Assembly: GCA_001824135.1 (NCBI GenBank)
Contig: MHWM01000032.1
Location: forward strand, 1-35,718
Reading direction: 5' to 3'
From: Candidatus Zambryskibacteria bacterium RIFCSPLOWO2_02_FULL_39_14
GTDB taxonomy: Bacteria; Patescibacteriota; Minisyncoccia; Phycocordibacterales; Zambryskibacteraceae
Length of the DNA stretch: 35,718 bases
Below, piece by piece: positions 5,967-35,718 of this stretch (position 1 is its first letter; every line of letters begins with the position of its first letter). The notes beneath the pieces are model-generated. The model saw nothing but the letters and a program-made list of their open reading frames with translations, was not told the DNA's origin and ran no database searches. The translations under genes and the position numbers were made by a program.

Positions 5967-6063
5967 AATTACCGCAGATTATAACATGATGAGTATGGGT
6001 GGAATAATGCAATTCTTTCGCAAAGATAGAACTTTTACAATTTTTTAATAAAAACTATCAAAA

Positions 6064-28333: not shown

Positions 28334-29671
28334 TTACTTAACTGGTAATTGTTTTATGGTAATTCGTGAACCATCCGAAGGGAAAGATTTTTTCCAAAAT
28401 GGTCTTATAGTGGCTGTGGCCGATATTACAGTTGGATAATTATTAAGTATAGAAGAGATATATTTCTTAGGTTTACCGACAATATCAGTCTTCAAAGACA
28501 CTTCATCAGTACGCCACACTACCATAGTATCACCCGTTACAGAGAGGTGAATCTCATCTGCATTTAGTATATCTAGAGAAGAATCATCGGAGAAAGAAAG
28601 TGTAAGTAATTCTGGCTCTAGAATATCAACAGATTCACCGGGAGCAAGAGTGATCTTGCCTAAAGAAAGATAAGTAGATAAATCACTTCTTTTAAACATA
28701 ACACCATACAAATTAGCGCGCCTATTAGCTACAACACGGCCTGGAGTAGCAGAGTCCGTTTGTGGTAAGTCTTCGAAAATAATAAAGGAAAGCGACGGGA
28801 AAAGAATCAAGTCTTTAGGTACTTGAGCTATAGCATCTGAAATAAGTTCAGCTCTTAAAGATGTCTCTAGTTCATTTTTGACTCTTAATCTGTCTTGTTC
28901 ACTCACTATTTTTTCTTTCCCGACAAAACCTCTAGACATCTCTGTTTTAGAGCGGGCATAAACTGCGGTAAATAAGGAAGTGCCTTCAAGACCCGGTAGA
29001 GTAAAGTCTGTGAGACCAATATTATATTCCTTTCCGGGATTTTCTGCATAAACAGTAACCTCCAAAGAACCTGGCTGTTCACTACCATTTACCACCTTTT
29101 TTGCAGGCACAACTATAGCATCTTCGACTTGGTAAATTTTACCTTCTGGAGTTTCAAAACGAGTAGTTGCTCTAAATCTTTGAGACTTAGTGCTACTGTT
29201 GTAGACCACTATTGTACCGCTTGCTTTACGACTCACTTCTTCTTCTCCAGAAGCCAAGACTTCCACTCCTTTGTCTTTGGAGAGTTTAGCTACACTATAT
29301 GAAAGAGTATCATTACCTGTCTTTTGTGCGATAAAAGACTCATTTTTCAAAGAAAGAGCAGAGGACTTAGGTACGTAAGAGAGTGTTGCCCCGTTAAAAA
29401 TAGAAAGCAATATAAATATAAGTACTAAAAGAGATACCCCAATACCCCACCAGAAACCTTTCCTGGTTTTTTTTATGCTTGGCGGTTTAACTTCTTCTTG
29501 TGATATGTGAATACTATCGCGTGGAACCGCAGAAGAATTATATTCTTTCATTATAAATGATGAAGGTGGCTGTTCTCCATTTTTCCTGCGATTTTCTGGA
29601 ATTGGTATATCTCTTATACTTCTTTTTCTCTCTGGTACTATAATATCTTCAATTTTTTTCGGCATGTACAA
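28334..29671 (-). CDS. hypothetical single-pass membrane protein with large extracytoplasmic domain (445 aa)
   Basis: Basic cytoplasmic N-terminus, one TM (FWWGIGVSLLVLIFILLSIF), and about 350 aa of beta-rich sequence. No motif recognised. Confidence 0.5.
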   Translation of the reverse strand: MYMPKKIEDIIVPERKRSIRDIPIPENRRKNGEQPPSSFIMKEYNSSAVPRDSIHISQEEVKPPSIKKTRKGFWWGIGVSLLVLIFILLSIFNGATLSYVPKSSALSLKNESFIAQKTGNDTLSYSVAKLSKDKGVEVLASGEEEVSRKASGTIVVYNSSTKSQRFRATTRFETPEGKIYQVEDAIVVPAKKVVNGSEQPGSLEVTVYAENPGKEYNIGLTDFTLPGLEGTSLFTAVYARSKTEMSRGFVGKEKIVSEQDRLRVKNELETSLRAELISDAIAQVPKDLILFPSLSFIIFEDLPQTDSATPGRVVANRRANLYGVMFKRSDLSTYLSLGKITLAPGESVDILEPELLTLSFSDDSSLDILNADEIHLSVTGDTMVVWRTDEVSLKTDIVGKPKKYISSILNNYPTVISATATIRPFWKKSFPSDGSRITIKQLPVK

Positions 29672-29680
29672 AATTATAAC

Positions 29681-30898
29681 CTATTTTTTAAATTTCTGCC
29701 CACTGCTTTTACGTGATAGTTCCTGATGCTCTTTTAATTGCTTATAAAACTTATCTTTATCCACTATCCCCCCTTTCTCTCTAGCAATCTCTTCAGTCAA
29801 TTCTATAGGGAAACCGTACGTAGTAAAGAGGATAAATGAATCCACCCCTTTCTCAAATTGCTTCAGACCTTCTCTCAAAGTCTTTCTGAATTTATTTTCT
29901 TCAGCAAGAATCTCTTTTTCTATTCTTTCGCTAGATTTTGCAAGTTCTGGATAAATATCTCTGTACTTTAAAATGACACTGCGAGCCACGTGAAAAAGCT
30001 CTCCGGGAGCAATACCTAAGATATCGGCATAGCGCACCGCACGGCGAATAAGACGTCTTAAAATATATCCTCTGCCAGTATTAGAAGCAATAACACCATC
30101 GGCTATCATGAATACTGATGTTCGTATGTGGTCAGAGACAATTCTCTCTGCCTTTTCTTCTGAAACTGAAGAAATATCTTTGATCCTTTTTATAATAGAT
30201 TCAAAAAGATCTGTCTCGAAAGCACTCGACACACCTTGAGTCACAAAGGTCAGACGTTCAAGACCCATACCAGTATCTACTCCTCTAATTTTAAGAGGTG
30301 TAAGTTCCTTATCTCGACTTTGGTAATATTCATTAAAAACGATATTCCAAATCTCAATTCCTCCTACATATATTTCTGTAGTCGGGCCACACGGACCTTC
30401 TTCCCCCGTCGGTCCCCAGAAATTATCTTCTCTGCCAAATTTTTTTATAATAATACTAGAGTCGATGGACTTCCAAATATCAGCAGATTCTTTGTCTTCT
30501 GGAATATTATCTGCGCCACCGAAGACAGAAATAAAATCTATCTTCAATCCAAAATCTTTAGTAATAAGTTCATGGGCATATTCGATGGCTTCTTTTTTCC
30601 AATAACCACCAAAACTGAAGTTGCCAAGCATTTCAAAAAAAGTGAGATGGCTCTTGTCTCCAACCTCTTCAATATCAGATGTACGCACACACTTTTGAGA
30701 AGAAGCTACATTAAGTGAGTTTAAATCTTTTTGAGCATCTGCCTTGCTTATGTAATACGATTTGAACTGTTGCATCCCTGCTGTAGTAAAGAGGACTGAC
30801 GGATCGTTCTTGGGTACAAGTGAAGCTGAAGGAATTATTACATGTGCCTGTTTTTTAAAAAAATCTAAGAATTGTTTACGAATTTCTCTGGATTGCAT
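29681..30898 (-). CDS. alaS: alanyl-tRNA synthetase, N-terminal aminoacylation/tRNA-recognition domain only (405 aa)
   Basis: IRKQFLDFFKKQAHVIIPSASLVPKNDPSVLFTTAGMQQFK, HLTFFEMLGNFSFG, GPCGPTTEIY, IEIWNIVFNEY, VDTGMGLERL, GRGYILRRLIRRA and TTYGFPIELT. It ends at ...EHQELSRKSSGQKFKK, which aligns (from memory) to about residue 455 of E. coli AlaRS. No editing or C-Ala domain follows. Confidence 0.88.
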   Translation of the reverse strand: MQSREIRKQFLDFFKKQAHVIIPSASLVPKNDPSVLFTTAGMQQFKSYYISKADAQKDLNSLNVASSQKCVRTSDIEEVGDKSHLTFFEMLGNFSFGGYWKKEAIEYAHELITKDFGLKIDFISVFGGADNIPEDKESADIWKSIDSSIIIKKFGREDNFWGPTGEEGPCGPTTEIYVGGIEIWNIVFNEYYQSRDKELTPLKIRGVDTGMGLERLTFVTQGVSSAFETDLFESIIKRIKDISSVSEEKAERIVSDHIRTSVFMIADGVIASNTGRGYILRRLIRRAVRYADILGIAPGELFHVARSVILKYRDIYPELAKSSERIEKEILAEENKFRKTLREGLKQFEKGVDSFILFTTYGFPIELTEEIAREKGGIVDKDKFYKQLKEHQELSRKSSGQKFKK

Positions 30899-30922: not shown

Positions 30923-30944
30923 AGCCCGACATCAAAGTCGGGCT
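30923..30944 (-). terminator. candidate intrinsic terminator/attenuator hairpin directly upstream of alaS
   Basis: An 8-bp GC-rich stem, AGCCCGAC (30923-30930) / GTCGGGCT (30937-30944), with a 6-nt loop. On the - strand it is followed by CGCTTTTTATG. It ends 24 nt before the alaS ATG. Confidence 0.5.
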
Positions 30945-31060
30945 GTGAGATCTTTCCAATGTTCAGAAAACCACCTGAGAACAAGGGCAATTCTGTACAG
31001 AATCATCGATCGGGACATGAGTATCCACGGTCGATCTGTGACATCGTTGATCAATTTCAT
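30932..31060 (-). CDS. candidate small ORF / leader peptide (42 aa)
   Basis: Hand translation gives MKLINDVTDRPWILMSRSMILYRIALVLRWFSEHWKDLTARL*. It is preceded by GGAGGG 3 nt from the ATG. The stop codon lies in the loop of the terminator hairpin. There is no homology evidence. Confidence 0.3.
   Translation of the reverse strand: MKLINDVTDRPWILMSRSMILYRIALVLRWFSEHWKDLTARL
30990..31003. repeat. perfect 14-bp palindrome ATTCTGTACAGAAT inside the alaS leader
   Basis: Read directly from the sequence. It could be a protein operator or a small RNA hairpin. Confidence 0.4.
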
Positions 31061-31076
31061 AATCCCTCCGGAATCA

Positions 31077-31104
31077 TTTATACCATAAATATTAATTTTG
31101 GCAA
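31077..31104 (-). promoter_or_regulatory. candidate sigma70-type promoter for the alaS leader
   Basis: The - strand reads TTGCCA (31099-31104), a 16-nt spacer, then TGgTATAAA (-10 at 31077-31082 with an extended TG). The predicted start is about 10 nt upstream of the small-ORF ATG. Confidence 0.45.
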
Positions 31105-31117
31105 ATAAGACACCATT

Positions 31118-31702
31118 TTAAAGATTTTTAAGTACTTTAAAATCCTCTTTTAGAGTGTCGAGTAAATGCTGATTATAAATAGCGGCAGCGGGATGGTAGA
31201 GAGGCGCTACTTTAAACTTGTCGGTAGTAAACACTTTTCCATGAAGTTTACTTATGGAATCCAATTCAAACTCTAATCCGTAGCGACTCATCACGTATTG
31301 CATAGAAAATCGCCCAAGAGTGGCGATCACTTTCGGCTTAATGATTTCAATTTGTCGATCAAGAAACGGCGCATATATTTCTATCTCATCAGGAAGAGGG
31401 TCACGATTACCGGGCGGGCGGTCCTTTACGATATTTGTCACATAAACATCTTTTCTCTCTATACCTGCGGAGACAAGAAGTTCATCGAGCACTTTTCCCG
31501 CCCGCCCGCAAAACGGCCTACCCGTCTTGGCTTCATTCTCCCCCGGCGCCTCACCTATAAACATTATCCAAGCAGAATGATTGCCCTCTCCTATTACAGG
31601 GAAGTATTTATTTTTAATTCGTTCTTTATATAAAGGCGAGCTCACAAGACCCAGTATCTCATCTTTTATCGCTTTTAGTGCCCTCTCTTTTTCGTTTATC
31701 AT
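31118..31702 (-). CDS. uracil-DNA glycosylase, family 4
   Basis: The family-4 motif FIGEAPGENEAKTGRPFCGRAGKVLDELL and a C-terminal HPAAAIY. The start ATG directly abuts the upstream stop (TAGATG). Confidence 0.85.
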   Translation of the reverse strand: MINEKERALKAIKDEILGLVSSPLYKERIKNKYFPVIGEGNHSAWIMFIGEAPGENEAKTGRPFCGRAGKVLDELLVSAGIERKDVYVTNIVKDRPPGNRDPLPDEIEIYAPFLDRQIEIIKPKVIATLGRFSMQYVMSRYGLEFELDSISKLHGKVFTTDKFKVAPLYHPAAAIYNQHLLDTLKEDFKVLKNL

Positions 31703-32557
31703 CTATGAAGCTTTTGACAACAACTCATTTATTTCATTTATCACCGGCCTAGAATCAAATGTGGTTCCTAAAAACTTACTTAAAAATTCCGGATTATCTT
31801 TAATATTCGAGCACAATACCACTCCAGCACCTAATAATATTTTTTTATTTGCTTTCGAAAGAGAATTGAGACAAGTAATAGGATGTAGAGATTCACTTTC
31901 TATCATATCTTGCAAATTACCTTCTTCTGGATAATTCCAACCTATCATTGTCAGGTTCTTACAAACACCATAGTGTATGGCGGTACTGGAAAATTTGGTA
32001 TTAGTTACAAGCCAACTGTCGGTGATAGACCGGTCGACCCCGCCATAGTTGAAAACATTTTCTTGAAGGTCATCAAATCTCGCTTTTATATAAAGAGCTA
32101 TTTTCAAATCAGATTTAATACCAAGTTCATTATGAAATTTAGCTTCTACCATAATAAGTTTCTTGTCATTGTATGCCACCACATCTACTTCATGTGGTAC
32201 ACATCCGCCAAGTACTACTTGACGAGTCTCGCATCTAAATCCTTTAGCTTTGAGTACTTCAGCTACAAAATCTTCAAAGGGAAATCCTGATGGACCAAGA
32301 TCTGTAATAGCACGGCGAAGAGAATAGCTTCTGGCTACAGGCTTACTAGCCTTCTTCAGGACAGAAAAGGCGTGTTTATATATCTCAGATGTAGTCATAT
32401 CACCTCCAAGTTCCAGTGATATATGTGACAAAACATCTTCTGCCATTTTTTCTGTTGCACCGGATTTCAAAAGAGAGAAACGAAGTTTTTCTGGTTCAAA
32501 AGCTTCACGTTTGCCATTTGCCTTAATAATCATTATTTGTTTTACCGGTTGTATCAT
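31703..32557 (-). CDS. ATP-cone domain fused to a PD-(D/E)xK (Mrr-cat-like) restriction-endonuclease-fold domain
   Basis: The N-terminal IIKANGKREAFEPEKLRFSLLKSGA...MAEDVLSHI...TSEIY is an ATP-cone pattern. It is followed by FEDFVAEVLKAKGF...PHEVDVVAY...LIMVEAKF (D...ExK) and VTNTKFSSTAIHYG. Confidence 0.7.
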   Translation of the reverse strand: MIQPVKQIMIIKANGKREAFEPEKLRFSLLKSGATEKMAEDVLSHISLELGGDMTTSEIYKHAFSVLKKASKPVARSYSLRRAITDLGPSGFPFEDFVAEVLKAKGFRCETRQVVLGGCVPHEVDVVAYNDKKLIMVEAKFHNELGIKSDLKIALYIKARFDDLQENVFNYGGVDRSITDSWLVTNTKFSSTAIHYGVCKNLTMIGWNYPEEGNLQDMIESESLHPITCLNSLSKANKKILLGAGVVLCSNIKDNPEFLSKFLGTTFDSRPVINEINELLSKAS

Positions 32558-32571
32558 CTTGTCATTATAAC

Positions 32572-33750
32572 CTATGAGATAACTCTATCCATCACTCCAC
32601 CACCTATACCATAGTCACCATCGTCTACTTTACTGGGAGACAAATAAAACACTATTGATTGACCGAGGGATAATCCGTTTATCGGTTTTTGAAACTCTAT
32701 ACCAAGTTCTTTACCTTCAAGAAAAAGTGTGGCAGGCACTTTATTTCCCCTATATCTTATCCTAGCAGAGAGGAGAGGATTTTTAGGTTCAGTAATCCAA
32801 TTCACACCCTTGACCACAATCTTTTTAGGCGAAAGAGAATCTATTTCCGATTTTTTATTTGAAACGGTAATAGTGTTTGCTTTAATGTCTTTTGATACCA
32901 CATAGAAAGCGCCATCCTCCGGTTTTTTCTTCAAAATATCAAAACCGTGCCTTTCTCCAATAGTGTAGAGTACGGCACCACTGTGAGAACCTATGATTTC
33001 ACCTAGAGTATTTAATACATCTCCCGGTTTAGTAGAGATAAAATGAGAAAGAAATTCTTCCATGCTGACATCACCAATAAAGCATATGCCCTGACTATCT
33101 TTCTTCTCCGAGACAGGCAGATTATATTTGCGCGCCAACTTGCGCACCTCATCCTTTTTTAGATTGCCAACTGGAAAGAGTATGTGTGCTAAATCATCTC
33201 TTGTTAAGGTCCAGAGAAAATATGATTGGTCTTTCTCTTTATCCACAGCTTCCTTCAATTGCCCATACTCAATACGAGCATAATGTCCTGTAGCAATATA
33301 GTTAGCACCCATTTCTTTGGCCTTTTTCCAAAATGCTCCAAATTTTATTTCTTTATTGCAGAGTACATCTGGATTCGGCGTACGACCAACTTTGTATTCA
33401 GCTATCATTTTATCCACTACCTCGCTTTTATACTTTTCTTCGAAATCAAAAAACAAGAAAGGAATATCTAAGGCAATGGCTACCTTCATAGCATCACGCC
33501 GTTCATCTCTCCAGCTACAAGGCAGAAAATCGGGTTGCCAGACTTTTATAAATACACCTGTTACGTCGAAACCCTTCTCCTTCAATAGTGCTGCGGAAAC
33601 AGCACTATCTACTCCACCAGAGAGTCCTACAAAGACTTTCGGCTTAGAGGTTATTTGTGTTACAGCAATTTTTTCTTTGCTATCTGGAAATGTATTTAAA
33701 CTTTTTTGCGACATGGTCATCGAAGTCTTCAGAATAATGCATTGTACCAT
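32572..33750 (-). CDS. mnmA: tRNA-specific 2-thiouridylase (MnmA)
   Basis: PP-loop VGLSGGVDSAVSA, GRTPNPDVLCN, IATGHYAR, DQSYFL, and DSQGICFIG (second catalytic Cys). The start is uncertain. The ATG at 33750 has an AGGAG 3 nt upstream but overlaps mltG by 71 nt; the alternatives are ATGs at 33720 and 33714. Confidence 0.88.
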   Translation of the reverse strand: MVQCIILKTSMTMSQKSLNTFPDSKEKIAVTQITSKPKVFVGLSGGVDSAVSAALLKEKGFDVTGVFIKVWQPDFLPCSWRDERRDAMKVAIALDIPFLFFDFEEKYKSEVVDKMIAEYKVGRTPNPDVLCNKEIKFGAFWKKAKEMGANYIATGHYARIEYGQLKEAVDKEKDQSYFLWTLTRDDLAHILFPVGNLKKDEVRKLARKYNLPVSEKKDSQGICFIGDVSMEEFLSHFISTKPGDVLNTLGEIIGSHSGAVLYTIGERHGFDILKKKPEDGAFYVVSKDIKANTITVSNKKSEIDSLSPKKIVVKGVNWITEPKNPLLSARIRYRGNKVPATLFLEGKELGIEFQKPINGLSLGQSIVFYLSPSKVDDGDYGIGGGVMDRVIS

Positions 33751-34634: not shown

Positions 34635-35718
34635 CTATACAGGTAGATTGGCAGGAGCTTCTGCCTTCTTTGAAGGAATACGAGTAAGTGTAGGTGTGGT
34701 AGATACTCCACCGTGTGGAAAATGGAATAGAGTAGCCAGCTCTTCAACAGTCAGCACATAAGGCTCACCATACAGGTGTTTAAAAGGAACATCAAAAAAT
34801 GACCGGCGTTTATAGGCTTCAAGGTGTGTTTGATGAAGCATCCTTTTTTTCTTGTCGTGAACATCTTGCCACGGATATTCAACACTCATAAACTTATTAG
34901 GTTTGATGCCATTGAGATTCTTGGAACCAAACTGACGCATACTTCCTATAAGACCCGTAAGTTTGTTCTTATCAAAGATATCTTTAGGCGCAACATAGAG
35001 CACTCTCATCATAGAGTTGAAAGCCAATTTGCCAGCATTGCGTTCTATGGCTTTAATAGTCTCGCCCTGTGTCGTGGTTAAATGTTGGAGAGTCTGAGGT
35101 TTACCTTCAGCTGGTTTAATATAAGATTCTTGTTCAATGATTTTTTTTATTTCTTTCTTAATGCTCTCTTTCCAATCAGGCTTTGGAAAGAGACGTGTAT
35201 CCTTAAGACCCTCCTTGCGATGACCTTGTATCAATATTTGTATCCACGCCTGTTCTCCGGGTTTGAGAGAACCAAGATATTCGATAAGCGGCACGAGGGG
35301 ATCCACTATTTCTTCTGGCTCTTTACCGCCTCGCTCCAGTTCGTAATCTATATATGATTTGATGGGATATGGGTCCGGTTTAACAAGGCTTGTCGTGATA
35401 CCGGAAAAATTTACCTTTTCCGGATCATAGACAACTTTGAGCGCATAATCTTCCGCCTCATAAACTTCCGCACCAGGATATTGAGCATAGATTCTCGATT
35501 CTATAATATTTTTCCACTTTGGTAATGCCCAGATGAAGAACTTAACTTCACCGCCTAACGAGACAATTTCAAGTGAGAAGAAGTCTCTAACTCGACCTTT
35601 AATAAAAACATCTGTAAGCGTACCTACCACATCTTCCCATATACCTTCTAGCACCATTTCCATAGCAGCTGGTGACTTATTTATGTCTCTCGGCAACTTA
35701 ATCTCCAGAAGCACACTG
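34635..35718 (-). CDS. conserved hypothetical protein, 5'-partial (reading frame open to window end)
   Basis: The frame stays open past the GTG at 35714 to the window edge. The sequence runs LLEIKLPRDINKSPAAMEMVLEGIW ... TVEELATLFHFPHGGVSTTPTLTRIPSKKAEAPANLPV*. No P-loop or other catalytic motif was seen. Confidence 0.55.
   Translation of the reverse strand, partial: SVLLEIKLPRDINKSPAAMEMVLEGIWEDVVGTLTDVFIKGRVRDFFSLEIVSLGGEVKFFIWALPKWKNIIESRIYAQYPGAEVYEAEDYALKVVYDPEKVNFSGITTSLVKPDPYPIKSYIDYELERGGKEPEEIVDPLVPLIEYLGSLKPGEQAWIQILIQGHRKEGLKDTRLFPKPDWKESIKKEIKKIIEQESYIKPAEGKPQTLQHLTTTQGETIKAIERNAGKLAFNSMMRVLYVAPKDIFDKNKLTGLIGSMRQFGSKNLNGIKPNKFMSVEYPWQDVHDKKKRMLHQTHLEAYKRRSFFDVPFKHLYGEPYVLTVEELATLFHFPHGGVSTTPTLTRIPSKKAEAPANLPV

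What the first reader, a model, noticed from the sequence alone, without database searches (positions are those of the whole stretch)
31118..32557. ATP-cone sensor fused to a PD-(D/E)xK nuclease, translationally coupled to a family-4 uracil-DNA glycosylase
The 284-aa protein joins an N-terminal ATP-cone to an Mrr-cat-type nuclease core (EVD...VEAK). The ATP-cone is the ATP/dATP-sensing allosteric module of ribonucleotide reductases and NrdR. An extra C-terminal region follows the nuclease core. As far as I know, this architecture has no experimentally defined function.

Its TAG stop directly abuts the ATG of a family-4 UDG (TAGATG), which implies co-translation and stoichiometric co-expression. 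A nucleotide-pool-gated nuclease paired with an enzyme that creates abasic sites in uracil-containing DNA could be one of two things:
- a repair module tuned to dNTP status;
- a restriction-like defence against dU-containing or dUTP-perturbing phages.

Both ideas are hypotheses.
Basis: partly seen in the sequence, partly recalled or inferred. Interest (0 to 1): 0.7.

Follow-up and report, generated by a model that had tools for sequence, protein, structure and literature searches.

The report
ATP-cone nuclease next to uracil glycosylase
The two genes and the unusual ATP-sensor-plus-nuclease protein are real, and the nuclease belongs to a large, highly conserved, functionally unstudied family of candidate-phyla bacteria and archaea, but its pairing with the uracil glycosylase is a local gene-order feature, not a dedicated two-gene system or a phage defence.

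Summary
A 284-aa ORF (31703-32557, minus strand) and a 194-aa family-4 UDG (31118-31702, minus strand) abut as TAG|ATG.

The 284-aa protein has three domains:
- an NrdR/NrdD-like ATP-cone with intact nucleotide-contact residues;
- a PD-(D/E)xK core, with E95, D125, E138 and K140 invariant across the family;
- a C-terminal AF1548-like_C domain of helix-hairpin-helix type.

It belongs to the AF1548 family. The nuclease and C-terminal part of that family was solved in 2004 (PDB 1Y88) without its ATP-cone. I found no functional study.

The family is large, at more than 1,100 clusters at 50% identity. It occurs in Patescibacteria and many archaea, evolves as slowly as MnmA, lies among housekeeping genes, and is absent from the phage collections searched. 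It is not in a defence island.

UDG lies within four genes downstream in most Parcubacteria relatives. It is directly adjacent in only about a fifth of them, and MgtC, a Cas4-like nuclease, Ogt or an exonuclease often intervene. UDG is absent from all 9 loci below 40% identity and from both plasmid loci examined.

Distant members instead sit beside AMP-phosphorylase-family genes and ion transporters.

Best reading: a core endonuclease gated by adenine nucleotides, co-expressed with UDG only in this lineage. Its cellular role, repair or nucleotide turnover, is unresolved.

The parts
31703..32557 (-). Gene for the 284-aa ATP-cone / PD-(D/E)xK nuclease / AF1548-like_C protein (AF1548 family)
   Evidence: ORF. 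It is 100% identical to a protein named 'ATP-cone domain protein' from Parcubacteria GW2011_GWB1_38_8. Pfam hits. 1Y88 at E=6e-28. AlphaFold model with pLDDT 92.8.
32303..32536 (-). ATP-cone domain (residues 8-85)
   Evidence: PF03477 at 31.4 bits, above the 25.8 cut-off. The family profile matches NrdD and NrdR ATP-cones. Foldseek finds NrdR ATP-cones at rmsd 1.8-2.6 A. I10, K12, E18 and K24 align with the NrdR nucleotide-contact residues V51, K53, E59 and K65 (and PMC12176259, read).
31892..32290 (-). PD-(D/E)xK nuclease core (residues about 90-222), with catalytic candidates E95, D125, E138 and K140
   Evidence: Mrr_cat hit. The residues are invariant. They align with the D/E/K catalytic triad assigned in 1Y88 (PMC1874628). 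Foldseek matches 1Y88, MspJI, AspBHI, Can2 and Cdn1 nuclease domains.
31715..31891 (-). C-terminal AF1548-like_C domain (residues about 223-281), four short helices of helix-hairpin-helix type
   Evidence: It aligns with the C-terminal domain of 1Y88. PF22357 is detected in relatives. The domain model has pLDDT 86. Its best fold matches are weak (E of 0.25 or more) but are uniformly DNA-binding helix-hairpin-helix modules: RNA polymerase alpha C-terminal domain, Hel308 domain 5, BAF, and RAD51/RadA N-terminal domains.
31118..31702 (-). Family-4 uracil-DNA glycosylase gene (194 aa), a form lacking all four iron-sulfur cluster cysteines
   Evidence: PF03167 at E=1e-32. TIGR00758 at 188 bits against a cut-off of 125. 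S. tokodaii UDG 4ZBX at E=1e-48. The four cluster cysteines are replaced by L, S, D and Y.
31700..31705 (-). Stop/start junction TAG|ATG with zero spacing
   Evidence: Sequence read. No Shine-Dalgarno-like motif lies upstream.
32564..32591 (-). Promoter-like site TGGATA-16-TATAAT, ending 7 nt before the nuclease ATG
   Evidence: Consensus scan with 10 of 12 matches. This is a pattern match only.
30923..30944 (-). Terminator-like hairpin plus T-run, 173 nt after the UDG stop and just before the AlaRS gene
   Evidence: Consensus scan with 8 pairs, 6 of them G-C. This is a pattern match only.

Best explanation
The 284-aa protein is an ordinary member of the AF1548 family. This is a core, vertically inherited gene of Patescibacteria and several archaeal lineages.

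It most likely encodes a Mg2+-dependent PD-(D/E)xK DNA endonuclease. The C-terminal helix-hairpin-helix-type domain would hold it on DNA. The N-terminal ATP-cone would switch its activity or oligomeric state by binding adenine nucleotides (ATP versus dATP, or ATP level). ATP-cones work this way in ribonucleotide reductases and NrdR.

In this genome it is probably transcribed with the downstream family-4 UDG as a two-gene unit. That pairing is one state of a fast-changing gene cassette between mnmA and alaS in Parcubacteria. The cassette variously holds mgtC, a Cas4-like nuclease, ogt, a PolB-like exonuclease, an HD nucleotidase and udg. It is not an obligate nuclease/glycosylase system and not a defence system.

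Shown here: the domains, the conserved catalytic and nucleotide-contact residues, the family's breadth and slow evolution, and the gene contexts. Inferred: nuclease activity, DNA as substrate, nucleotide gating, and the cellular role. The role is DNA maintenance or repair, or nucleic-acid turnover tied to the nucleotide pool.
For: Architecture and fold.

Conserved residues:
- Catalytic E95, D125, E138 and K140 are invariant in 140 diverse representatives and in a 96-sequence alignment of bacterial and archaeal members.
- ATP-cone residues K12, G15, K24 and T56 are at least 90% conserved. I10, K12, E18 and K24 match the NrdR residues whose mutation reduces nucleotide binding (PMC12176259).

Family size:
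- 3,846 hits in the first homologue search.
- 1,148 clusters at 50% identity, 433 of them below E=1e-30.
- The same three domains occur in Archaeoglobi, Korarchaeota, Bathyarchaeia, Aenigmarchaeota, Nanoarchaeota and Altiarchaeales.

Core-gene behaviour:
- Median identity across 29 syntenic loci is 68.8%, against 63.3% for MnmA, 48.7% for AlaRS and 49.2% for YceG.
- The window is entirely housekeeping: ribosomal proteins, RpoA, DnaK/DnaJ/GrpE, aminoacyl-tRNA synthetases, ScpAB and murein synthesis.
- Each clade has its own stable housekeeping synteny.

Local operon: promoter-like and terminator-like sites bracket the two genes.

Variable cassette and repair-gene neighbours.
Against: - No biochemical data exist for any family member.
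- The Mrr_cat HMM hit on the window protein itself is marginal (21.9 bits against 21).
- The helix-hairpin-helix assignment rests on weak fold matches (E of 0.25 or more).
- The ATP-cone lacks the Arg of the canonical K-R-D-G motif, reading K-A-N-G. E. coli NrdR, which binds nucleotides, also lacks it, reading K-S-N-D.
- Contexts differ between clades, so no single partner fixes the role.
- Recurrent ion-transporter neighbours (MgtC, P-type ATPase, CorA, NhaA, MscS) are unexplained by this model.
- Direct nuclease-UDG adjacency recurs in scattered lineages from 47% to 80% identity. That could reflect some selection for co-expression.
Confidence: 0.55

Rival explanations
1. Dedicated base-excision module. 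UDG creates abasic sites, and the ATP-cone nuclease incises or processes them only when dATP/ATP signals that repair synthesis can be completed. The two proteins act as obligate partners made in fixed ratio.
For: - The stop and start abut and a shared promoter-like and terminator-like pair brackets the genes.
- UDG is within four genes downstream in 56 of 88 Parcubacteria-type loci at 40-80% identity, and directly adjacent in 19.
- Other DNA-repair genes populate the same cassette: Cas4-like PDDEXK_1 in 31 loci, Ogt in 10, PolB-exo in 7.
- A Pur_DNA_glyco gene lies 1.4 kb away in a Korarchaeota locus.
Against: - Adjacency decays to 0 of 9 below 40% identity and is absent in all archaeal, Uhrbacteria-like and plasmid loci.
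- The whole mnmA...alaS block is syntenic, so linkage may simply be inherited.
- mgtC is usually inserted between the two genes, with a 4-nt overlap to the nuclease gene.
- At least 13 neighbour changes are needed on the tree.
- Tight junctions are the rule in this genome.
Confidence: 0.15
2. Nucleotide-salvage or energy-stress nuclease. The ATP-cone reads the adenylate pool and releases a nuclease that starts nucleic-acid breakdown. This would feed NMP phosphorylase and the pentose-bisphosphate route, which candidate-phyla bacteria and DPANN archaea rely on for nucleotides and ribose.
For: - Bathyarchaeia locus L052: the nuclease gene overlaps the 3' end of a true AMP phosphorylase (TIGR03327, 617 bits against a cut-off of 535). 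An IF-2B-family isomerase gene precedes it.
- Pontibacter and Criblamydia plasmids: the operon is nuclease, beta-CASP RNase-like MBL protein, archaeal-type 'thymidine phosphorylase family' protein, then PRPP synthetase.
- The same three partner genes occur in permuted order in metagenome locus L133, together with PEP synthase and a P-type ATPase.
- Phosphoketolase, GlgP and acetate kinase flank the operon in Criblamydia.
- The AMP-phosphorylase/RuBisCO nucleoside pathway is documented in candidate-phyla bacteria and DPANN archaea. Titles and abstracts of PMC5113843 and PMC6389311 were seen.
Against: - The MBL/TP/PRS triad occurs on 127 plasmids, and in the two contexts I examined it lies in metal or P-type ATPase islands without the nuclease. 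The link may therefore be incidental.
- No AMP phosphorylase gene is near the nuclease in any of about 120 Parcubacteria-type loci or in the window.
- A free intracellular DNase is hazardous.
- Only 4 independent contexts support the idea.
Confidence: 0.2
3. Restriction-like or abortive-infection defence. The nuclease, alone or with UDG, attacks dU-containing phage DNA or fires when phage infection perturbs the dNTP/ATP pool.
For: - The nuclease core resembles type IV and modification-dependent restriction enzymes (Mrr_cat; MspJI and AspBHI by fold) and the CRISPR ancillary nucleases Can2 and Cdn1.
- There is a weak PADLOC hit to candidate PDC-S02 (E=2.6e-4, 18 bits, residues 64-132).
- Two homologues lie on plasmids near an integrase or an IS element.
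Against: - The context is housekeeping in every clade, with no defence genes nearby.
- The gene shows stable synteny within clades and evolves slowly.
- No homologue was found in 2.9 million viral contigs or 50,697 phage genomes.
- There is no Mrr_N or other modified-base reader domain.
- The PADLOC hit covers only the generic start of the nuclease fold.
Confidence: 0.05
4. Nucleotide-sensing DNA-binding regulator. Like NrdR, an ATP-cone controls DNA binding, here through the nuclease-fold and helix-hairpin-helix domains. This would regulate neighbouring genes such as transporters, with cleavage activity lost or irrelevant.
For: - The ATP-cone is most similar to those of NrdR and NrdD.
- The gene is often first in an operon, directly before transporter genes: MgtC, P-type ATPase and DUF389.
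Against: - All four PD-(D/E)xK catalytic positions, plus H122, H142, R160 and D163, are invariant or nearly so across bacteria and archaea. That is not expected for a domain used only for binding.
- No sequence-specific DNA-binding domain is present.
Confidence: 0.05

Closest known systems
AF1548 of Archaeoglobus fulgidus (PDB 1Y88, structural genomics, 2004; Pfam Mrr_cat plus AF1548-like_C)
   Same: Same family. E=6e-28 for the window protein and 4e-71 for the family profile. About 50% identity over the nuclease and C-terminal domains, and target-normalised TM 0.81. The catalytic D/E/K triad was assigned from the structure (PMC1874628).
   Different: The crystallised 199-aa chain lacks the ATP-cone. 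The gene in Archaeoglobus contigs encodes 265 aa with an ATP-cone (P0391, 99% identical). No function has been reported for it.
NrdR and the N-terminal ATP-cones of ribonucleotide reductases (NrdA, NrdD)
   Same: The ATP-cone fold and the nucleotide-contact residues V/I, K, E and K. The likely mode of action is a nucleotide-dependent change of oligomeric state (PMC9110341).
   Different: There is no Zn-ribbon and no reductase domain. TIGR00244 NrdR scores 15 bits against a cut-off of 125. The output domain is a nuclease fold, and I found no studied example of that.
Mrr / type IV restriction endonucleases (Pfam Mrr_cat)
   Same: The same PD-(D/E)xK subfamily by HMM.
   Different: There is no N-terminal Mrr_N winged-helix reader of modified DNA. 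The context is housekeeping and the gene evolves slowly.
Can2/Card1 and Cdn1 (CARF sensor plus PD-(D/E)xK effector nucleases of type III CRISPR)
   Same: The same design logic: an N-terminal small-molecule sensor joined to a Mrr-like nuclease. There is local sequence similarity around G-x-F-E...E-x-D...E-x-K and fold similarity.
   Different: The sensor is an ATP-cone, not CARF. No CRISPR or cyclic-oligoadenylate genes are nearby.
XPF/Mus81/Hef structure-specific nucleases (nuclease domain followed by helix-hairpin-helix motifs)
   Same: A nuclease core of restriction-enzyme fold followed by a helix-hairpin-helix-type DNA-binding module. This analogy is from my own knowledge; the helix-hairpin-helix character is suggested.
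   Different: There is no ERCC4 domain hit and only one small C-terminal helical domain. Homology was neither shown nor claimed.
Family-4 uracil-DNA glycosylases (S. tokodaii 4ZBX, T. thermophilus 1UI0, T. maritima 1VK2)
   Same: The downstream gene matches them at E=1e-48 to 2e-33 and carries the GEAPG and HPAAA motifs.
   Different: All four [4Fe-4S] cysteine ligands are lost, both here and in all 69 Parcubacteria UDGs found next to the nuclease.

Membership tests
ATP-cone (PF03477) | HMM score above Pfam's gathering threshold | tested here: met
   31.4 bits against 25.8, residues 8-85.
ATP-cone (PF03477) | The four-helix plus beta-hairpin fold of reductase and NrdR cones | tested here: met
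   Model pLDDT is 92.8. NrdR chains match at rmsd 1.8-2.6 A over 81-87 residues.
ATP-cone (PF03477) | Nucleotide-contact residues (NrdR V51, K53, E59, K65) | tested here: met
   I10, K12, E18 and K24 occupy those positions. K12 and K24 are at least 94% conserved.
ATP-cone (PF03477) | Binds ATP/dATP and changes protein activity | not testable with these tools
   Needs ITC or filter binding, plus activity assays.
PD-(D/E)xK nuclease, Mrr_cat / AF1548 family | HMM or sequence match | tested here: met
   Mrr_cat at 21.9 bits against 21, which is marginal. 1Y88 at E=6e-28. Relatives score up to 36.6 bits.
PD-(D/E)xK nuclease, Mrr_cat / AF1548 family | Catalytic E...D...E-x-K residues conserved | tested here: met
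   E95, D125, E138 and K140 are invariant. They align with the 1Y88 triad.
PD-(D/E)xK nuclease, Mrr_cat / AF1548 family | C-terminal AF1548-like_C domain | tested here: met
   The alignment to 1Y88 runs to residue 277. PF22357 passes its threshold in relatives but not in the window protein alone.
PD-(D/E)xK nuclease, Mrr_cat / AF1548 family | Metal-dependent phosphodiester cleavage | not testable with these tools
   No biochemical data were found for any member.
Type IV restriction enzyme Mrr | N-terminal modified-DNA reader (Mrr_N) plus Mrr_cat | tested here: not met
   There is no Mrr_N hit. The N-terminus is an ATP-cone.
NrdR | Zn-ribbon followed by an ATP-cone; matches the equivalog model | tested here: not met
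   TIGR00244 scores 15 bits against a cut-off of 124.65, covering the cone only.
Known anti-phage defence system | Match to a defence-protein model | tested here: not met
   The only hit is an 18-bit partial match to candidate PDC-S02. UDG gives no hit.
Known anti-phage defence system | Location in a defence island or on a mobile element; patchy distribution | tested here: not met
   Neighbours are housekeeping genes and synteny is stable within clades. No hits in phage collections. Two plasmid copies exist.
Family-4 UDG | HMM above the family threshold, with GE(A/G)PG and HP(A/S) motifs | tested here: met
   TIGR00758 at 188 bits against 125. The motifs are visible in the alignment to 4ZBX and 1UI0.
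Family-4 UDG | Four cysteines ligating a [4Fe-4S] cluster | tested here: not met
   The positions hold L, S, D and Y. None of 69 neighbouring Parcubacteria UDGs keeps any of the four. The archaeal equivalog NF040953 scores 204 bits, below its cut-off of 250.
Dedicated nuclease+UDG two-gene module | The pair is conserved across the nuclease family beyond inherited synteny | tested here: not met
   0 of 9 loci below 40% identity have UDG nearby. It is absent in the archaeal, Uhrbacteria-like and plasmid loci. Within Parcubacteria it is directly adjacent in 19 of 97 loci.

The most novel reading that the evidence does not exclude
The AF1548 family would be the first case of an ATP-cone controlling a nuclease. 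It would be a near-universal endonuclease of Patescibacteria and several archaeal lineages, gated by the nucleotide pool. It would link DNA or nucleic-acid cleavage to ATP/dATP status in organisms that cannot make nucleotides de novo. The recurrent ties to Mg2+/cation transporters and to AMP-phosphorylase-type salvage genes would then be functional.
Probability: 0.35. Interest if true: 0.75.

Novelty: new variant of a known kind. Interest (0 to 1): 0.55.

Why it matters
Outside ribonucleotide reductases and NrdR, I found no experimentally studied ATP-cone. A nuclease gated by one would extend ATP/dATP sensing to DNA or RNA cleavage.

The family is among the better-conserved proteins of Parcubacteria genomes and is present in many archaea. 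Its only structure, 1Y88, was solved without the sensor domain, so a cheap biochemical study could assign a function to thousands of 'ATP cone domain-containing protein' annotations.

It also matters as a caution. An abutting stop/start pair in a tightly packed candidate-phyla genome is weak evidence for a functional pair.

Tried and rejected
- **Defence reading: rejected.** PADLOC gave only an 18-bit partial hit. The IMG/VR motif scan and tblastn against 50,697 phage genomes found no homologue. The BFVD fold search gave only single-domain matches, with query-normalised TM of 0.38 or less.
- **Literature: nothing found.** Searches for ATP-cone with restriction endonuclease, nuclease, Mrr or AMP phosphorylase, and for AF1548 and 1Y88, found no functional study. 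The only mentions are structural-classification notes on 1Y88.
- **Non-coding RNA: none.** Rfam and tRNA scans of the window found nothing, including in the 173-nt stretch after UDG.
- **A single conserved partner across archaea: none found.** Nine loci gave nine largely different neighbourhoods.
- **The MBL/TP/PRS triad as proof of a salvage role: weakened.** The triad is on 127 plasmids, and in the two contexts I examined it lies in metal or P-type ATPase islands without the nuclease.
- **Polarity of mgtC loss versus gain next to the nuclease: not resolved.** The neighbour-joining tree shows many changes in both directions.
- **Dimer or complex prediction, and inspection of model coordinates: not possible with the tools.**
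Full report
**What is there**

On the minus strand, a 284-aa ORF (31703-32557) is followed with zero spacing by a 194-aa ORF (31118-31702). The plus strand reads CATCTA at 31700-31705, which is TAG|ATG on the coding strand. The 284-aa protein is 100% identical to a database protein named 'ATP-cone domain protein' from Parcubacteria group bacterium GW2011_GWB1_38_8. The window is therefore a candidate-phyla (Patescibacteria) contig with 37% G+C.

**Domains of the 284-aa protein**

Pfam gives ATP-cone at 31.4 bits against a cut-off of 25.8 (residues 8-85). It gives a marginal Mrr_cat hit at 21.9 bits against 21 (residues 91-143). Other evidence makes the nuclease assignment solid:
- Residues 97-277 align with PDB 1Y88, 'hypothetical protein AF1548' of Archaeoglobus fulgidus, at E=6e-28. 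A family profile reaches E=4e-71.
- An AlphaFold model built on 96 diverse homologues has mean pLDDT 92.8 and pTM 0.88.
- Foldseek returns 1Y88 with target-normalised TM 0.81. It then returns the nuclease domains of MspJI, AspBHI, Can2 and Cdn1, and the ATP-cones of NrdR, NrdD and NrdA at 1.8-2.6 A rmsd.

It is seen above threshold in relatives. Modelled alone it reaches pLDDT 86. Its fold matches are individually weak (E of 0.25 or more), but they are uniformly DNA-binding helix-hairpin-helix modules: RNA polymerase alpha C-terminal domain, Hel308 domain 5, BAF, and RAD51/RadA N-terminal domains.

**Conservation of functional residues**

E95, D125, E138 and K140 are invariant in two data sets. 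One is 140 representatives of clusters at 50% identity or less. The other is a 96-sequence alignment of Parcubacteria, Uhrbacteria-like and archaeal members. The following residues are at least 90% conserved in one or both sets: H122, E123, H142, R160, D163, T185-N186-T187, C119, C199, W207, P210 and P226. The D/E/K triad corresponds to the catalytic triad assigned in 1Y88 (PMC1874628).

In the ATP-cone, K12, G15, K24 and T56 are at least 90% conserved. I10, K12, E18 and K24 align with E. coli NrdR V51, K53, E59 and K65. Mutation of the equivalent residues in Streptomyces NrdR reduces nucleotide binding (PMC12176259).

**The family**

The family is large and its architecture is old:
- The first homologue search returned 3,846 proteins, mostly 72-85% identical among Zambryskibacteria-like genomes.
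- An exhaustive search of a 1.84-billion-protein library of cluster representatives found 1,148 clusters at 50% identity, 433 of them below E=1e-30. Nearly all are full length at about 280 aa.
- A search seeded with the AF1548 sequence found the same ATP-cone + Mrr_cat + AF1548-like_C architecture in Archaeoglobus, Geoglobus, Ferroglobus, Korarchaeota, Bathyarchaeia, Aenigmarchaeota, Nanoarchaeota and Altiarchaeales.
- That search included a 265-aa protein 99% identical to the crystallised AF1548. The 199-aa chain in 1Y88 therefore lacks the ATP-cone that the gene encodes.
- Sources name these proteins 'ATP cone domain-containing protein', 'restriction endonuclease', 'Holliday junction resolvase' or 'ATPase'.
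- I found no paper assigning a function.

**Is it a defence gene?**

The evidence says no:
- The whole window is housekeeping and almost entirely co-directional. It holds S13, S11, S4, RpoA, L17, L13, S9, GrpE-DnaK-DnaJ, several aminoacyl-tRNA synthetases, ScpA/B, MurG, FtsW, MraY, MnmA, YceG and AlaRS.
- PADLOC gives only an 18-bit partial hit.
- No homologue was found in IMG/VR or in 50,697 phage genomes.
- Across 29 syntenic loci the protein's median identity to the query is 68.8%. That compares with 63.3% for MnmA, 72.2% for UDG, 48.7% for AlaRS and 49.2% for YceG. This is core-gene behaviour.

**Is the nuclease/UDG pair conserved?**

It is conserved only within one lineage, and loosely. 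In 46 genome loci the whole block p359-YceG-MnmA-nuclease-...-UDG-AlaRS-p445 is syntenic. I clustered neighbours in 131 loci drawn from genomes, metagenomes and the window. The counts were:

| Neighbour | Loci | Position |
|---|---|---|
| MnmA | 89 | immediately upstream in 70 |
| UDG | 62 | +1 in 23, +2 in 26, +3 in 12 |
| MgtC | 33 | +1 in 31 |
| Cas4-like PDDEXK_1 nuclease | 31 | downstream cassette |
| Ogt DNA-binding domain protein | 10 | downstream cassette |
| PolB-type 3'-5' exonuclease | 7 | downstream cassette |
| HD/YfbR-like nucleotidase | 3 | downstream cassette |

For loci with at least 2.5 kb of downstream sequence, the figures by identity to the query are:

| Identity to query | UDG within four genes | UDG directly adjacent |
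|---|---|---|
| 70% or more | 16/17 | 7 |
| 60-70% | 16/18 | 2 |
| 50-60% | 19/36 | 7 |
| 40-50% | 5/17 | 3 |
| below 40% | 0/9 | 0 |

On a neighbour-joining tree of the nuclease, the state 'UDG at +1' needs at least 13 changes over 88 tips. In relatives the nuclease-mgtC junction is most often a 4-nt overlap. That coupling is as tight as the TAG|ATG junction here.

None of the more distant contexts has UDG nearby:
- three Archaeoglobi loci plus a fourth Archaeoglobaceae locus;
- Bathyarchaeia and Korarchaeota loci;
- three Aenigmarchaeota-like loci;
- four Uhrbacteria-like loci, where the order is HU-LytR-nuclease-L28-DUF6938-UvrD;
- two plasmids.

In the window itself, 10 of 33 junctions are 0 nt or less and 20 of 33 are 15 nt or less, so abutment is the norm.

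Co-expression in this genome is nevertheless plausible. A TGGATA-16-TATAAT site ends 7 nt before the nuclease ATG, and a G+C-rich hairpin with a T-run follows UDG. Both are pattern matches only.

**Other context signals**

Three themes recur, and none is universal.

1. *DNA repair and recombination genes.* The Parcubacteria cassette above holds several. An RmuC-like gene occurs in L111 and L125. UvrD lies 3-5 kb away in the Uhrbacteria-like clade. Pur_DNA_glyco lies 1.4 kb away in Korarchaeota, and Hjc lies 2 kb away in Geoglobus.
2. *AMP-phosphorylase-type genes.*
   - In Bathyarchaeia the nuclease gene overlaps the end of a bona fide AMP phosphorylase, which is preceded by an IF-2B-family gene.
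   - Homologues about 44% identical on a Pontibacter plasmid and a Criblamydia plasmid head an operon: nuclease, beta-CASP MBL protein, archaeal-type thymidine/AMP phosphorylase family protein, PRPP synthetase.
   - The same three partners occur in permuted order in metagenome locus L133.
   - However, that triad is on 127 plasmids, and in the two contexts I examined it lies in metal or P-type ATPase islands without the nuclease.
3. *Ion transporters directly adjacent.* MgtC occurs in 31 loci. P-type ATPases occur in L111, L125, L133 and Criblamydia. CorA and DUF389 flank the gene in Ferroglobus, MscS in A. fulgidus, a permease/Usp fusion in Geoglobus, and NhaA in L131. I cannot explain the third theme.

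**Mechanism I consider most likely**

The protein is a Mg2+-dependent PD-(D/E)xK endonuclease. Its C-terminal helix-hairpin-helix-type domain tethers it to DNA. Its ATP-cone gates it by binding adenine nucleotides and changing the oligomeric state, as in NrdR and ribonucleotide reductases (PMC9110341).

Shown here are the fold, the conserved residues, the family's breadth, the slow evolution and the gene contexts. Inferred are the activity, the substrate, the gating and the cellular role.

The data do not decide the role. It could be DNA maintenance or repair, or nucleic-acid turnover tied to the nucleotide pool. The UDG link is a lineage-specific operon arrangement. It makes a repair role somewhat more plausible in Parcubacteria, but it does not define a two-component system.

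**Comparison with known systems and novelty**

The protein is a member of the AF1548 / Mrr_cat family. It carries a genuine ATP-cone. It fails the tests for Mrr (no Mrr_N), for NrdR (no Zn-ribbon) and for any known defence system.

In design it resembles sensor-plus-nuclease proteins such as Can2/Card1, with an ATP-cone in place of CARF. By analogy only, it also resembles nuclease-plus-helix-hairpin-helix enzymes such as XPF/Mus81.

The architecture is already catalogued in databases. What is new is only that nobody appears to have studied it. I therefore rate it a new variant of a known kind, of moderate interest.

Noticed in passing
window 31118-31702 (-), and UDG genes in loci L001-L134: The family-4 UDG has lost all four [4Fe-4S] cysteine ligands, replaced by L, S, D and Y. 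The same is true of all 69 Parcubacteria UDGs found next to the nuclease, so this is a lineage of family-4 UDGs without the iron-sulfur cluster.
   Followed up: partly
L049 7001-7798 (Archaeoglobus contig); PDB 1Y88: The crystallised 'AF1548' chain is 199 aa and lacks the ATP-cone. The gene encodes a 265-aa protein with an ATP-cone (P0391, 99% identical). The 2004 structure therefore represents an N-terminally truncated ORF call.
   Followed up: partly
loci L003-L045 and others, immediately downstream of the nuclease gene; also L047, L049, L048, L111, L125, L131, L133, L139: Ion-transport genes are directly adjacent to the nuclease gene in many unrelated lineages, often with overlapping stop and start codons: MgtC, P-type cation ATPase, CorA, DUF389, MscS, NhaA and a permease/Usp fusion. 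I have no explanation for this.
   Followed up: partly
L138 2829-6597, L139 7834-11602, L133 7614-10518, L140, L141: A three-gene module occurs on 127 plasmids of Sphingobium, Ralstonia, Cupriavidus, Legionella and others. It comprises a beta-CASP MBL hydrolase, an archaeal-type 'thymidine phosphorylase family' protein and a PRPP synthetase. In the two contexts I examined it sits beside P-type ATPase or metal-resistance genes. Its function appears unstudied.
   Followed up: partly
window, upstream of many minus-strand genes (e.g. 32564-32569, 29672-29690, 5967-5990): Many genes have a TATAAT-like box 5-12 nt before the start codon and no Shine-Dalgarno motif. This suggests leaderless or very short-leader mRNAs in this genome.
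   Followed up: no
window 29681-30898 (-) and 28334-29671 (-): The AlaRS gene encodes only 405 aa, covering the catalytic domain (PF01411 positions 1-435 of 552). A conserved 445-aa ORF with no Pfam hit follows 9 nt later and keeps this position in relatives. This could be a split or truncated AlaRS arrangement.
   Followed up: no
window 30945-31117: A 173-nt untranslated stretch lies between the UDG stop and the terminator-like hairpin. In relatives UDG is followed by AlaRS after about 25 nt. There is no Rfam or tRNA hit.
   Followed up: partly
window 34635-35714 (-): A 359-aa ORF that runs to the window edge is conserved in synteny upstream of YceG in nearly all related loci. It has no Pfam match.
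   Followed up: no
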